A DNA stretch of 64,000 nucleotides from Promethearchaeia archaeon (GTDB lineage: Archaea > Asgardarchaeota > Lokiarchaeia > Sigyniarchaeales > SOKP01): positions 15,316 through 79,315 of the forward strand of contig JAHQWK010000028.1 of the NCBI GenBank assembly GCA_029856145.1, written 5' to 3'. The notes below the pieces were generated by a model, which ran no database searches, had not been told where the DNA came from, and saw only the letters and a program-made list of their open reading frames with translations. Below are positions 4,046 through 12,091 of this stretch, piece by piece (the first letter of the stretch is position 1; the number at the start of each line of letters is the position of its first letter). A program made the position numbers and the translations under genes.

Positions 4046-4699
4046 TTGATAGATATGAAAAAATTAATTTTATTTGGTCCTCCAGGAGCGGGAAAAGGCA
4101 CGTTCAGTTCACAAATTAAAAAAGTAGTAACTGAAATTGTTCATATAAGTACTGGAGATATCTTTCGTGAAAATCTAAAGAATGAAACGCCATTAGGATT
4201 AAAAGCTAAAAGCTATATGGATAAAGGAGAACTTGTGCCTGATGAAGTAGTAATTGATATGGTACGAGATAGATTAAATAAAGAAGATGCTAAGAAAAGT
4301 GGTTTTATTCTTGACGGATTTCCTCGAACCTTACATCAAGCAGAAGCATTATCAGAGATAACCGAAGTAGATTTACTTCTATTATTACAAGTTTCAAGAG
4401 ATATTATATTTAAAAGAATCTTAGGGAGGTATAGTTGTAATAATTGTGGTGAGATCTATAATAAATACACACTCCCAACAAAAGTAGAAGGAATTTGTGA
4501 TAAATGTGGTGCTGAAATTAAATTTGAGCAAAGAAGCGATGATAATGAAGAAACTTTGAAAAGTAGATTAGATGCTTATGAAAAGAATGCCAAACCACTT
4601 ATTAAATATTATAAGAAAAGAGGAAAACTGAAAAAAGTTGATGCTACAGATACATTGAGTTTCACTGATGATGATATAAAACAAATTATAGGAATATAA
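4046..4699 (+). CDS. adk: Adenylate kinase (bacterial/eukaryotic type, Zn-binding LID)
   Basis: GPPGAGKGT, HISTGDIFR, LDGFPRT, CNNC...CDKC, QRSDD. Confidence 0.96.
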   Translation: MIDMKKLILFGPPGAGKGTFSSQIKKVVTEIVHISTGDIFRENLKNETPLGLKAKSYMDKGELVPDEVVIDMVRDRLNKEDAKKSGFILDGFPRTLHQAEALSEITEVDLLLLLQVSRDIIFKRILGRYSCNNCGEIYNKYTLPTKVEGICDKCGAEIKFEQRSDDNEETLKSRLDAYEKNAKPLIKYYKKRGKLKKVDATDTLSFTDDDIKQIIGI

Positions 4700-4726
4700 A
4701 ATTTCTTTTTATATTTATTCTAAATC

Positions 4727-5473
4727 ATGAAATATAATCTATGTATTCCAATTCCAATTAGATATACAACTATTAAAGAAGTTAAACCAATAATTGAAAA
4801 AGTTATAAAATCAAAACCTAATCTAATTGAATTGAGATTTGATTATATTTCTAACGTTAATACTCTTTCTGTGGATTTCATAAGAGATTTATTGAATATT
4901 ATTCGTCCTCATGCTGCCGTTATCTTTACTTTCAGAGATTCATCTGAAGGTGGTCAAATTCAAATAGAACAAAACGAGCGCTTTAAAATTTATAAATTGT
5001 TTATAGCCGTTAAACCTGATTATGTAGACCTTGAAATGAATACAGATAAAGACATATTAAAAGAAATTATTAATTTGTCTTCTCAAAAGGGAGTAAAATT
5101 AATTATTTCGCATCATAATTATGAAAAAACACTTACATATGAAGAGGGAATCTCTCTCATTCATGATTTTCACGAATATTTGATTAAAGTGCTGTTAATA
5201 AAACCTAAAATACTTGAAGATAATATTTATAAGATTATTTTTACGGCTCAAACTTTTGAGGACAATCTAATACCATTAAAAGTATGTAAGGAATTCTCAA
5301 ATTCAAATCAGAAAATTATCTCATTCTGCATGGGAACTTTAGGGTTTTTCTCAAGAATTATGTGTGTTATTAAAGGATCTTTTCTTACATATGCTTCTTT
5401 GGAAGAAAAAACAGCACCAGGACAAATTAATATTGAGAAAATGAAAGAAATATATGATCTAATTCTAGACTAG
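4727..5473 (+). CDS. aroD: Type I 3-dehydroquinate dehydratase
   Basis: IELRFD, FTFRDSSEGG, ISHHNY, FCMG...SR, TAPGQ. Confidence 0.92.
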   Translation: MKYNLCIPIPIRYTTIKEVKPIIEKVIKSKPNLIELRFDYISNVNTLSVDFIRDLLNIIRPHAAVIFTFRDSSEGGQIQIEQNERFKIYKLFIAVKPDYVDLEMNTDKDILKEIINLSSQKGVKLIISHHNYEKTLTYEEGISLIHDFHEYLIKVLLIKPKILEDNIYKIIFTAQTFEDNLIPLKVCKEFSNSNQKIISFCMGTLGFFSRIMCVIKGSFLTYASLEEKTAPGQINIEKMKEIYDLILD

Positions 5474-6776: not shown

Positions 6777-6976
6777 TTAATTTTTTTTGAAAATATTACC
6801 ACACCCACCGCACTTCATGTTTTTTGCATAGACTGGAGTGCCCTGCTTCAGCGGTAGGCTGAAATAGCTTTACCTATACTGTAGTAAAGCACGTTATTCC
6901 TGTCTGATTCTTCATGAAGCTTGCGTGGATTCTCATTGCCACATTGAGGACATTTTACTCTTTTATATTCTGTCAT
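6777..6976 (-). CDS. 56-aa zinc-ribbon protein encoded in two exons, join(6976..6876,6846..6777); alternatively a pseudogene with a 29-nt insertion
   Basis: ATG at 6976 reads MTEYKRVKCPQCGNENPRKLHEESDRNNVLYYS, then meets TGA inside the insert. The second knuckle, QGTPVYAKNMKCGGCGNIFKKN*, lies in another frame. Removing 6847..6875 joins them via AT|G (Met). Confidence 0.75.
6847..6875 (-). other. Candidate 29-nt archaeal BHB/BHL-type intron in an mRNA
   Basis: mRNA folds as GUGCUUU/AGGGCAC outer helix, CAGU/GCUG 4-bp central helix, 3-nt bulges AU^A and AA^G, inner helix GGUA/UACC plus GCU/AGC. Confidence 0.7.
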
Positions 6977-7901: not shown

Positions 7902-8432
7902 TTACTCAAGGTGTTTCAATTCAATTAAGATCATAGCTACAATTTTATTTATTAACTTTCCAGAAGTCTCAACAACAAAATCTGCAGCAGACTCATATAG
8001 AGGTTGTCTATAAGTCAAAATCTTTTTAATCTCTTCCAAGGATTCTTCTTTTTTTATTAAAGGTCGAGATTTTTTTCTATTTTTCATGATACGTTTGTAA
8101 ATTTCTTCAATAGAGACAGTTAGTAATATGATATGACAATTTTTTCTCAAATTATCAATATTTACTGGATTTAACACAACTCCCCCACCACATGAAATGA
8201 CCACTTTATTTAATTTTGAAACTATTTCACACACAAAAGCTTCATATTCTCTAAATTTAGCTTCTCCCTCCTCAGCAAAAATTTTAGGAATAGATTTACC
8301 AACTTCTTGAATTATTAGTTGATCTGTTTCTAACAACTTATAATCTTTTCCAAGACGTTTCACTAATGCCTTACCAATAGTCGTTTTTCCTGTGGCCATA
8401 AAACCAATAAGAGCAATGGAATCTTTAGTCAT
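7902..8432 (-). CDS. aroK: Shikimate kinase (bacterial/NMP-kinase type)
   Basis: IGFMATGKTTIG, IFAEEGEAKFREYE, ISCGGGVV, RPL, RQPLY. Confidence 0.95.
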   Translation of the reverse strand: MTKDSIALIGFMATGKTTIGKALVKRLGKDYKLLETDQLIIQEVGKSIPKIFAEEGEAKFREYEAFVCEIVSKLNKVVISCGGGVVLNPVNIDNLRKNCHIILLTVSIEEIYKRIMKNRKKSRPLIKKEESLEEIKKILTYRQPLYESAADFVVETSGKLINKIVAMILIELKHLE

Positions 8433-9210: not shown

Positions 9211-9831
9211 ATTATAATAAAACATCGGGGTTTCGAACCTAAATTTGATTCCTCTGTATTTATAGCACCTACAGCTGCTGTTATAGGTAAAATTTTGATT
9301 GGAAAAGATTCAAGGATAATGTATGGTTCTGTTCTTGATTCAGAGGCCTCTAAGATCGAAATTGGTGAATGCTCAGTAATATGTGAAAATGCTGTTCTTA
9401 GAGCTACAGCATCAGGAAATCTTGAATATCCTGTAATTATTGGTGATCATGTTTTTATTTCACCACAATCAACTCTTATTGGTTGTAAAGTTGAATCTAA
9501 TTCATATATAGCTACTGGTGCCACTATCTTGCAAGGTGCCATTGTCCAATCTGGTGCTGCAGTTGCTGTTGGAGCTTTTGTTCATGCAAAAACACTTGTT
9601 CCAGCTAATTCATTTATTCCTCCAAATAACATTGCTATTGGAGATCCTATCAAAATTTATCGTCCAAAAGATCAAGAGGCATTAGCTAAAGCTATAAAAT
9701 CAATTGAATTTGCGAAAGTGGCTTTTAATGTTGATGCAAAATGGGAAAATCGCTTTGAGAGGTATAGACAAGCTACACAGGTAAGATCAAAAGAATTTGA
9801 GAGTCATTTTAATGATGAGATAATTGGTTGA
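9211..9831 (+). CDS. Gamma-carbonic anhydrase-like hexapeptide-repeat protein; N-terminus extended to a non-AUG start
   Basis: Left-handed beta-helix repeats. The frame is open upstream of the ORF-track start (9295) as IIIKHRGFEPKFDSSVFIAPTAAVIG, back to TGA 9202-9204. Confidence 0.85.
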   Translation: MIIKHRGFEPKFDSSVFIAPTAAVIGKILIGKDSRIMYGSVLDSEASKIEIGECSVICENAVLRATASGNLEYPVIIGDHVFISPQSTLIGCKVESNSYIATGATILQGAIVQSGAAVAVGAFVHAKTLVPANSFIPPNNIAIGDPIKIYRPKDQEALAKAIKSIEFAKVAFNVDAKWENRFERYRQATQVRSKEFESHFNDEIIG

Positions 9832-10780
9832 GACAAATAAATCTTTGTTATCTAATATGAAAGGGATTAATTTTATTACTGCTCGTACAAAAGTTCTATG
9901 CATTATTGGGTATCCAATTGAACATTCTATGAGTCCAATAATGCATAATGCTGCGATCCAAGACCTTAACCTTAATTATATTTATTTAGCATTCAGTATT
10001 TATCCTAATAATTTAGAACTTGCTGTAGAGGCATTTAGAGCATTTAATATTAAAGGAATAAACGTGACTATCCCTTTCAAACAAAAAATCATGGAATACT
10101 TAGATGATATTGATACTATAACACAGAAAATTGGAGCAATAAATACAATCAAAAATGATAAAGGATATTTAACTGGTAGAAATACGGATGCAGAAGGCGG
10201 TAAAAAGGCAATATTGAATGCAGGGTATACAATTTTGGGAAAAAATATCTTATTATTAGGAGCTGGTGGAGCTGCAAGAGCTTTGAGTTACATTTTAGCG
10301 AATGATGTAAATAAAATAGTAATAGCAAATAGAACTGAAAAGAGAGCAGAAAAGCTTACAAATGAATTGAAAAAAAGTTTTGGGATAAATGCTGAGCCAA
10401 AGAAATTTAATAATTATGTCTTGAGAGAAGAAGCGAAAACAGCTGATATCTTAATCAATACAACTCCAGTTGGAATGTATCCGAACGTTGATAAATCACC
10501 AATACCTGCAGAATTTTTGCATAAAGACTTAATTGTTTTTGATGTAGTCTATAACCCATTAGAGACTAAATTAATAAAAGAAGCCACTAAAAAAGGATGT
10601 AAAACACTAGGGGGTTTAGATATGTTAGTTAATCAAGGTGCTTCTGCATTTGAGTGGTGGACTAATAAAAAGCCAAATGTTAATTTAATGAAAAAGATAA
10701 TTATTGAATTTCTTAGTAAGAAAGAATATGAATTTTTTAAAAATAAAAATAATAAAAAAAATAATAAATTATTGTATTGA
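9824..10780 (+). CDS. aroE: Shikimate dehydrogenase
   Basis: IGYPIEHSMSPIMHN, NVTIPFK, GAINT, NTD, LGAGGAARA, INTTPVGM, DVVYNP. Confidence 0.96.
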   Translation: MVETNKSLLSNMKGINFITARTKVLCIIGYPIEHSMSPIMHNAAIQDLNLNYIYLAFSIYPNNLELAVEAFRAFNIKGINVTIPFKQKIMEYLDDIDTITQKIGAINTIKNDKGYLTGRNTDAEGGKKAILNAGYTILGKNILLLGAGGAARALSYILANDVNKIVIANRTEKRAEKLTNELKKSFGINAEPKKFNNYVLREEAKTADILINTTPVGMYPNVDKSPIPAEFLHKDLIVFDVVYNPLETKLIKEATKKGCKTLGGLDMLVNQGASAFEWWTNKKPNVNLMKKIIIEFLSKKEYEFFKNKNNKKNNKLLY

Positions 10781-11137
10781 GGTTCCACAAAGTGCACAAA
10801 ATTTGGCATTTGCACTAATATCTAGCTCAGATCCACAATTAAAGCAGAATTTTGATTTTTCTTCAATCTGTTGCGGTTCTATAATAATTTTTTGATTCTC
10901 TGGTTGATTAGAAGCACTAATTACCTGATAATTTGAACTTGGTTGATTATTTTCCTTTCGTTCATAACAAATTGAATCACAGTGAATACAGCGGGGTTTA
11001 TGTGATTTATCTAAGTAAACAGCAACATAAATTAATAACCCGATACCACCAGTGAATATAGCTAAAATAATTGCTAAGCCAATATTGAAATCATTTGGTT
11101 TTGTATATACATTCATCTTACATTTTTGACAATACAT
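10769..11137 (-). CDS. LITAF-like zinc/membrane domain plus C-terminal zinc ribbon
   Basis: CQKC, hydrophobic stretch, CIHC; then CFNC...CALC. Confidence 0.8.
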   Translation of the reverse strand: MYCQKCKMNVYTKPNDFNIGLAIILAIFTGGIGLLIYVAVYLDKSHKPRCIHCDSICYERKENNQPSSNYQVISASNQPENQKIIIEPQQIEEKSKFCFNCGSELDISANAKFCALCGTSIQ

Positions 11138-11269
11138 TTTTCTATCACTCCAAAATATATAATTTTTTATTTAATTACAAGGAGATTTTGATTGAATTAA
11201 AAAAATTTGGAGTCCAATTTTTAAAATCGATGAATATTAATATTTCTACAAAGGAATAAAATTAAAAAA

Positions 11270-11644
11270 TTAATTATCTGTAATTTGACTTCCGCAAGTC
11301 GGACAAAATTTTATTCCCAAATCTAATTTTTCTCCACAAAGGGCACAAAAATTAGGTCTAGCTCCTGTGACTTCTTCAGTTGTGTTTATAGGTGCGGCAT
11401 ATGAAGCATTTTGAATTTGAGGTTGAGATTGAATTGTATAGGGGGTTGAAGTTTGAAAAGCTGTAACTTTAGTTCCGCAATGGACACAATGTTGTTTTGG
11501 TTTATTATAGTAAATAGCGAGGTAAATTATTAAGCCAATTCCCGCTGTAAAAATTAATAATATTATTGCAAGACAAGTATCTATCCCTTCACGAGTCAAT
11601 AATACATTTTGCTGACAACGGGGGCAATAAGCAGTATCACTCAT
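11270..11644 (-). CDS. LITAF-like zinc/membrane domain plus C-terminal zinc ribbon (paralog)
   Basis: CPRC, LAIILLIFTAGIGLIIYLAIYY, HCVHC; then CALC...CPTC. Confidence 0.8.
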   Translation of the reverse strand: MSDTAYCPRCQQNVLLTREGIDTCLAIILLIFTAGIGLIIYLAIYYNKPKQHCVHCGTKVTAFQTSTPYTIQSQPQIQNASYAAPINTTEEVTGARPNFCALCGEKLDLGIKFCPTCGSQITDN

Positions 11645-11704
11645 TTAAATTTCTTTAACCTTTATTTATTTCTTTTAATAATTAAAAATAATTATTATAT
11701 ATTT

Positions 11705-12091
11705 CTATTCTTTAATAGTAGTTCCACAAATAGGGCAAACTGTCCCTTGATTTAGTATTTCTTCTTGACAATATGGGCAAATTATTCTTTCTTCCTTTTC
11801 AGTTTTTTCTTGATCAATTGTTTGAAGTATTCGGGCAATTTGGGCTCTTGGTTCAGGAAATTCTTCTTGTGAATTGTAAAAATCTAATCTATTTTGGCAC
11901 GTAGGACAAAGATTTCTTTTTAAGATAACATAACGATAAATTAGAAAAGGAACTAAAGCAATCCCTAATGAAGAAATGATAGTAAGAATCCAAACGTTAT
12001 AATACATATTATCCATAGTCCTTCTTTTTGGCTTCAAAATTTCTTTCTCACAATTATCACAATATGCGAAATTTTTACCCATTTCTCTCAT
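11705..12091 (-). CDS. LITAF-like zinc/membrane domain plus C-terminal zinc ribbon (divergent paralog)
   Basis: CDNC, hydrophobic stretch, CPTC; then CPYC...CPIC. Confidence 0.75.
   Translation of the reverse strand: MREMGKNFAYCDNCEKEILKPKRRTMDNMYYNVWILTIISSLGIALVPFLIYRYVILKRNLCPTCQNRLDFYNSQEEFPEPRAQIARILQTIDQEKTEKEERIICPYCQEEILNQGTVCPICGTTIKE

What the first reader, a model, noticed from the sequence alone, without database searches (positions are those of the whole stretch)
6777..6976. Candidate BHB (tRNA-endonuclease-type) intron in a protein-coding zinc-ribbon gene
Seen: an unannotated minus-strand gene has its two CxxC knuckles (CPQC and CGGC) in different frames, separated by a 29-nt insert (6847..6875) carrying a stop in both relevant frames. 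The mRNA reads GUGCUUU-ACUA-CAGU-AU^A-GGUAAAGCUAUUUCAGCCUACC-GCUG-AA^G-C-AGGGCAC. This gives a 4-bp central helix CAGU/GCUG flanked by AUA and AAG, an inner stem GGUA/UACC (plus GCU/AGC) and an exon-exon stem GUGCUUU/AGGGCAC; the 3' site sits in an internal loop, i.e. a relaxed BHL form. Established: archaeal splicing endonuclease (EndA) cuts after the second nucleotide of each bulge, and mRNA introns of this type are rare, best known from crenarchaeal cbf5. Applying that rule with no fitting removes exactly 29 nt and creates AU|G, giving an intact 56-aa protein ...VLYYS-M-QGTPVYAKNMKCGGCG. Inference: EndA/RtcB-dependent mRNA splicing in a probable Asgard archaeon, conceptually akin to HAC1/XBP1 unconventional splicing.
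Basis: partly seen in the sequence, partly recalled or inferred. Interest (0 to 1): 0.93.

Follow-up and report, generated by a model that had tools for sequence, protein, structure and literature searches.

The report
tRNA-type mini-intron in Asgard zinc-ribbon gene
A 29-base hairpin that breaks a small zinc-binding protein gene of a Loki-type Asgard archaeon is very probably a real intron cut out of the messenger RNA by the tRNA-splicing enzymes; papers I could search confirm this inside an archaeal coding sequence only for one gene (cbf5), and no spliced transcript of this gene has been seen yet.

Summary
Observation confirmed. The host is a Promethearchaeota (Lokiarchaeia) archaeon. The insert (6847..6875) is in two independent DNA runs. 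It sits at the same base, always 29 nt, in 35 genomes of one genus; 32 orthologs lack it and read Y-[YF]-x-M-Q-G. Of 13 cut registers tested on 31 genomes, only the BHB-rule one gives both that motif and a full 4-bp helix (31/31; 0/31 in every other register). The intron stem covaries; both exons are under purifying selection (dN/dS about 0.06); no frameshift window is shared. The genome has two EndA subunits and RtcB. Relatives carry 30-33-nt BHB-type inserts at four more sites in this gene, one a copy of this intron; this genome has seven more in other genes, including uL11. The protein is the stand-alone Loki Zn domain known from gelsolin tails. Splicing is inferred (about 0.9), not shown; the HAC1/XBP1-like regulation is unsupported. 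The scan noted this class before on other DNA (33 notes, at least 22 genomes; this gene once).

The parts
6876..6976 (-). Exon 1: ATG to the AT of the split Met34 codon; first CxxC knuckle
   Evidence: dN/dS 0.062 over 29 intron-bearing genomes
6847..6875 (-). 29-nt intron; hairpin with ATTTC loop (6865-6861); stops in both relevant frames
   Evidence: absent in 32 orthologs, 29 nt in 35; present in independent DNA runs
6777..6846 (-). Exon 2: G of Met34 to TAA; second CxxC knuckle
   Evidence: dN/dS 0.054
6878..6881 (-). 5' strand of the central 4-bp helix (CAGT, exon 1)
   Evidence: 100% of cells paired in 31 genomes; Ser codon AGT in 30 of 31 intron-bearing against 8 of 32 intronless
6849..6852 (-). 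3' strand of the central helix (GCTG, intron)
6875..6877 (-). 5' splice-site bulge AT^A
   Evidence: unpaired in the RNAalifold consensus
6846..6848 (-). 3' splice site AA^G, in an internal loop or weakly paired (relaxed motif)
6853..6874 (-). Intron stem (GGTA/TACC plus GCT/AGC)
   Evidence: 6 of 7 pairs with a change on both sides, 96.8% paired
6838..6892 (-). Outer exon-exon stem, arms 6892-6886 and 6844-6838
   Evidence: 93.5% paired, 1 of 7 pairs compensatory; largely fixed by the protein code

Best explanation
The insert is an endonuclease-type (relaxed BHB, helix-bulge-helix with the 3' site in a loop) intron in an mRNA. Shown: position, length, fold conservation, selection on both exons, presence of the enzymes' genes. 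Inferred: the pre-mRNA folds so that exon CAGU pairs with intron GCUG; the two-subunit EndA cuts after the second base of each 3-nt unpaired stretch; RtcB joins AU to G, rebuilding the invariant Met codon at the tip of the zinc-ribbon hairpin; the 56-aa Loki Zn-domain protein is made. Splicing is most likely routine, not a switch. The intron was gained once or twice inside one genus and belongs to a population of 28-33-nt hairpin inserts that keep arriving in coding genes of this family and survive where a BHB can form.
For: 35 genomes with a 29-nt insert at the same base, 32 without, syntenic with aroK. Only register 0 of 13 yields YYSMQG and a 4-bp helix, 31/31. Structure: 96.2% of cells paired, 8 pairs compensatory, 0/500 shuffles as high, slid controls 26-52%; RNAalifold finds the same central and inner helices. 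Exon dN/dS 0.062 and 0.054; intron 0.68 and 0.96 in the two frames. Four more insertion sites in the same gene, each restoring the ortholog length with 3-4 of 4 central pairs; one site has three unrelated sequences of 31-33 nt with helices TTAT/ATAA, GTAC/GTGC, TTAT/GTAA. Seven more inserts of 28-32 nt in this genome; the uL11 one is shared by at least 8 other genomes. Two EndA genes and RtcB. Precedent: cbf5 (PMC2738675).
Against: No spliced read, cDNA, peptide or cleavage assay. The 3' site is not a clean 3-nt bulge: two extra conserved pairs can close it, and the strict form costs about 2.2 kcal/mol. Several orthologs fold the helix poorly in silico (under 0.2 in 10 of 31); one further genome has 3 of 4 central pairs (L327). 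A two-subunit EndA does not guarantee relaxed cleavage (Methanopyrus; PMC12397907). The 31 genomes are kin, so shuffle counts are not probabilities.
Confidence: 0.88

Rival explanations
1. Ribosomal recoding: a -1 frameshift inside the insert, or a 29-nt ribosome hop, makes the full protein without splicing.
For: A -1 shift between 6870 and 6850 would be open in this genome. Register +1 gives YYSIQG in 30 of 31, a mild change. Split cbf5 genes were once read as frameshifts (PMC2738675).
Against: No shared window: the shift must fall before intron base 4 in L020, after base 21 in L080, at 12-13 in L028. The intron is not conserved as peptide in either frame. No matched take-off and landing codon (AGT/CTG, ATA/AAG; sequence). 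In-frame 30-nt inserts with stops (NfuA, uppS, aIF2-gamma, uS3) cannot be cured by a frameshift.
Confidence: 0.03
2. The insert is removed from RNA at these sites, but by another enzyme or as a regulated, HAC1/XBP1-like switch in which the unspliced state matters.
For: An 8-bp exon-intron hairpin competes with the BHB and is the local MFE here. Retention would delete the second knuckle.
Against: That hairpin has no covariation (83.9% paired, 472/500 shuffles as high). The unspliced tail ends at different stops. Like inserts sit in unrelated housekeeping genes and come and go between species. Ends are not GT-AG; no Rfam match; too short for group I or II (own knowledge).
Confidence: 0.07
3. A dead gene: the insert inactivated it and the hairpin is a relic.
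For: Public annotations call only a 42-aa hypothetical protein. Eight paralogous domains exist in the genome.
Against: Exon 2 has dN/dS 0.054 with synonymous difference 0.69 per site, and both knuckles are intact in all 35 genomes once the inserts are removed.
Confidence: 0.01
4. Assembly artefact, or excision at the DNA level.
For: The window is from a metagenome-assembled genome (5.4% contamination).
Against: Two DNA runs from different studies carry the insert; no gap or joint is listed. 35 genomes share it with natural divergence.
Confidence: 0.01

Closest known systems
cbf5 pre-mRNA intron of Desulfurococcales and Sulfolobales (Watanabe 2002; Yoshinari 2006; Yokobori 2009, PMC2738675)
   Same: Short intron splitting a conserved codon in a coding sequence; unconventional BHB; cuts between the second and third bulge residues; hetero-oligomeric EndA; patchy gain and loss; missed by annotation.
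   Different: Other phylum; unrelated gene; one of many such genes, with five sites in this gene alone and a copied intron; splicing not yet shown here, whereas it was for cbf5.
BHB intron in the 5' UTR of Haloferax HVO_1309 (PMC7714728)
   Same: EndA substrate in an mRNA; 46 nt.
   Different: Outside the coding sequence, so the reading frame does not depend on it.
Non-canonical tRNA introns of Asgard archaea and Thermoproteales (bioRxiv 10.64898/2026.10.13.758758)
   Same: Repeated gains at BHB-compatible sites; similar size (this genome has tRNA introns of about 21-43 nt); copying between sites as in Thermoproteales is seen once (L027).
   Different: That study covers tRNA genes only (no occurrence of 'mRNA'). 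No tRNA intron here resembles this one.
HAC1/XBP1 unconventional splicing (PMC13149111)
   Same: Short spliceosome-independent intron whose removal shifts the frame; RtcB ligates XBP1 (PMC11747266 abstract).
   Different: IRE1 cuts two stem-loops under stress; here the motif is BHB-type and nothing indicates regulation.
Loki Zn domain of 2DGel gelsolin tails and stand-alone small proteins (PMC9433394)
   Same: (CxxC)2, extended loop with Tyr at its tip, Loki-restricted; the 335-aa gelsolin of this genome ends in the homologous domain.
   Different: Function unknown; the paper reports no intron in the passages read.

Membership tests
EndA-spliced (BHB-type) intron | 4-bp central helix between exon 1 and intron end | tested here: met
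   31/31, only in this register; 3 of 4 further genomes also 4/4, one 3/4
EndA-spliced (BHB-type) intron | 3-nt 5' bulge closed by an intron helix | tested here: met
   6 of 7 stem pairs compensatory
Canonical hBHBh' motif | 3-nt 3' bulge closed directly by an exon-exon helix | tested here: not met
   A14 and C51 do not pair; outer stem starts after an internal loop. Relaxed form, as in most cbf5 introns
EndA-spliced (BHB-type) intron | Cuts after the second base of each bulge give the right product | tested here: met
   rebuilds the Met invariant in 32 intronless proteins
EndA-spliced (BHB-type) intron | Host encodes EndA and an RNA ligase | tested here: met
   two PF01974 genes, one PF01139; one has the Tyr/His/Lys pattern of a catalytic subunit (read from own knowledge)
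EndA-spliced (BHB-type) intron | Host EndA cleaves relaxed motifs | not testable with these tools
   needs an assay; Asgard EndA range unmeasured
EndA-spliced (BHB-type) intron | Spliced RNA or excised intron observed | tested here: inconclusive
   no RNA holder listed; two metatranscriptome-labelled runs do not cover the site
Spliceosomal, group I or group II intron | GT-AG ends, or a ribozyme core | tested here: not met
   ends AG..AA, 29 nt, no Rfam match
HAC1/XBP1-type regulated splicing | Conditional cleavage; conserved alternative state | tested here: inconclusive
   no conserved competing fold or unspliced peptide; regulation needs RNA data
Loki Zn domain (2DGel tail family) | (CxxC)2 ribbon with Tyr-bearing loop, homologous to the 2DGel C-terminus | tested here: met
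   40% identity, E 1.8e-8 to the gelsolin tail; model pLDDT 84, TM 0.71 to a gelsolin cluster

The most novel reading that the evidence does not exclude
One family of Lokiarchaeia carries an actively spreading population of about 30-nt BHB introns in coding genes, including translation genes (uL11, uS3, aIF2-gamma, EF-2), so EndA/RtcB act as a general mRNA-splicing system there; introns are copied to new sites that repeat the exon context, as seen for this intron in L027.
Probability: 0.75. Interest if true: 0.92.

Novelty: new variant of a known kind. Interest (0 to 1): 0.8.

Why it matters
Papers I could search name cbf5 as the only confirmed intron in an archaeal coding sequence (PMC2738675, PMC7714728). 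Routine mRNA splicing in many genes of an Asgard lineage would show that close prokaryotic relatives of eukaryotes tolerate and gain coding introns without a spliceosome or nucleus. It makes intron gain testable: five sites in a 170-nt gene, one with a visible donor. It also means genes in these genomes are mis-annotated as truncated. This gene is a compact, well-controlled test substrate.

Tried and rejected
RNA evidence: no RNA holder listed; runs X18 and X20 do not cover the site. Exact spliced junction in JGI contigs: none; a degenerate pattern gave only genomic intronless relatives. P0001, the nearest 56-aa protein, lies on genomic contigs of an intronless lineage. A second exact junction in G035 and 29-nt-spaced hits in genus g28 are chance matches in other genes. 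A homology-free BHB scan of the genome showed no excess over off-frame controls and missed this gene, so it gives leads only and suggests tens of such introns at most. No donor for this intron elsewhere in the genome. Gain versus loss is unresolved: aroK tree needs 2 changes, one clade not rejected (p-AU 0.34). Pfam, PDB and Atlas feature searches gave no function; the JGI labels S27AE/S27E are not supported. Searches failed on my input or on time.

Full report
OBSERVATION. The sequence is as described. The gene starts at ATG 6976 on the minus strand, reads CPQC and stops at TGA 6850-6848; CGGC lies in the -1 frame behind TAA 6872-6870. Removing 6847..6875 gives a 56-aa protein. Frame restoration is weak evidence by itself, because many 3n+2 deletions reopen the frame. 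The insert is real DNA: contigs from two runs of different studies span it without a gap.

HOST AND ORTHOLOGS. Related loci are labelled mostly Promethearchaeota (including Loki_b32); a few carry other Asgard labels. Among 63 distinct orthologs, 31 carry an insert at AGTAT^GCA, all exactly 29 nt, and 32 have none and read Y-[YF]-x-M-Q-G; four more insert-bearing genomes were added later. Both forms lie beside aroK within the genus. The insert was seen only in the window's genus; other genera and families searched are intronless at this site. On an aroK tree the label needs 2 changes and a single origin is not rejected, so one gain, with or without a loss, is open.

STRUCTURE. On 31 genomes the proposed fold has 96.2% of cells paired and 8 pairs with changes on both sides; no shuffle of 500 reaches this and slid controls give 26-52% (kin inflate such counts). 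The central helix is always paired, the intron stem has 6 of 7 compensatory pairs, and the outer stem is mostly fixed by coding. RNAalifold recovers the central and inner helices unaided, and adds two pairs that can close the 3' site, so the motif is relaxed, not canonical. The strongest test is register: sliding the 29-nt cut from -6 to +6, only register 0 gives the invariant YYSMQG, and only there is the 4-bp helix complete (31/31; 0/31 elsewhere). The exon Ser codon is AGT or AGC in all intron-bearing genes but varies in intronless ones. Thermodynamic support is moderate: helix probability 0.87 here, median 0.57.

THE GENE IS ALIVE. dN/dS is 0.062 in exon 1 and 0.054 in exon 2, against 0.68 and 0.96 for the insert in its two frames. 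Internal stops leave no frameshift window common to all genomes. So the full protein is selected, and it can only be made if the 29 nt are skipped. The protein is the stand-alone form of the Loki Zn domain that ends two-domain gelsolins (PMC9433394). The intron splits the Met at the tip of the hairpin loop between strands 20-32 and 38-46. Its function is unknown; that paper suggests a binding role.

NOT AN ISOLATED CASE. Relatives carry further inserts in the 26 bases downstream, at four more sites: L027 has a 31-nt copy of this intron at a second CAGTAT; L016, L308 and L309 have unrelated 32-, 33- and 31-nt inserts at one site, each with its own 4-bp helix; L018 (30 nt) and L307 (31 nt) use two others. 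Each removal restores the ortholog length. A motif-free comparison with one congener (G022, 81% complete) found frame-breaking or stop-bearing inserts of 28-32 nt in uL11, NfuA, a B12-binding mutase subunit, mevalonate kinase, uppS, aIF2-gamma and uS3 of this genome (names from sequence motifs; uL11 and NfuA also by Pfam), and in EF-2 and two other genes of G022. I picked these by hand from a noisier list: 4 of 22 disruptive inserts have at least 7 of 8 motif pairs (1.2 expected), against 1 of 54 open in-frame inserts (2.1 expected); uppS, aIF2-gamma and uS3 have only 2-3 of 4 central pairs. The uL11 insert is 28 nt with a 4-bp helix in nine genomes. At these three tested genes the other families are intact, which may be why cultured strains did not reveal it (inference).

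MECHANISM. The genome has two EndA genes and RtcB; one EndA has the catalytic pattern and the other lacks the His (own knowledge), fitting the two-subunit type reported for most Asgard genomes. EndA cuts between the second and third bulge residues, also in the relaxed cbf5 motifs (PMC2738675). I infer routine EndA/RtcB splicing (0.88). Steps not shown: transcription, cleavage, ligation. A regulated switch has no support: the competing hairpin does not covary.

COMPARISON AND NOVELTY. It works like the cbf5 intron and meets every sequence-testable feature of a relaxed BHB intron; it fails the canonical motif at the 3' bulge, and the RNA test was inconclusive. Seven paper searches found no report of coding-sequence BHB introns in Asgard archaea; a 2020 paper names cbf5 as the only earlier mRNA case, the 2009 paper says others were only predicted, and the 2026 Asgard preprint treats tRNAs only. 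The library lacks most subscription journals. This scan has noted the class before: 33 notes in at least 22 genomes, several in this genome, and this gene once in another genome. I found NfuA and uL11 before looking; those notes are not independent support. Verdict: real, very probably spliced, a new variant of a known kind; interest 0.8.

Noticed in passing
G000 C28:14741-14768 (minus), about 550 bases before the window start: Ribosomal protein uL11 is broken by a 28-nt BHB-type insert, shared by at least 8 other genomes; G002 and G003 have a 35-nt insert at another site in the gene.
   Followed up: yes
G000 C10:33334-33363 (plus): NfuA split right after its CxxC by a 30-nt canonical BHB insert; G014 and G018 have 30-nt inserts at a different site.
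   Followed up: yes
G000 C19:57732, C3:203065, C3:195615, C5:34200, C8:31453: 30-32-nt hairpin inserts inside conserved motifs of a B12-binding mutase subunit, mevalonate kinase, uppS, aIF2-gamma and uS3.
   Followed up: partly
G022 C1:1382056, 335882, 39633: 28-30-nt BHB-type inserts in EF-2, a metallo-hydrolase and a small basic protein; the last resembles this intron's stem (GTAAAGC..ATT..GC).
   Followed up: partly
L027 (=L066): A 31-nt copy of the intron sits 17 coding bases downstream at a second CAGTAT: a candidate local intron duplication.
   Followed up: partly
window 6861-6865 and the inserts above: Many inserts close on a 5-nt loop of type ATTTC/ATCTC/ATTTA, unexplained.
   Followed up: no
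window 6868-6875 and 6883-6890: The intron's 5' arm is nearly the reverse complement of exon 1 just upstream; possibly a trace of origin by fold-back, not under covariation.
   Followed up: partly
G000 C1:34452 (plus): A histone-like frame appears split relative to G022 with no BHB at the best register (35 nt, weak gain).
   Followed up: no
L323 (G071:C121): Two tandem intronless copies of the zinc-ribbon gene.
   Followed up: no
window 10769-12091 (minus): Three tandem small membrane proteins with N- and C-terminal zinc ribbons.
   Followed up: no
window 4046-5473, 7902-8432, 9824-10780: Bacterial-type adenylate kinase, aroD, aroK and aroE around the gene; aroK stays adjacent across the genus.
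   Followed up: partly
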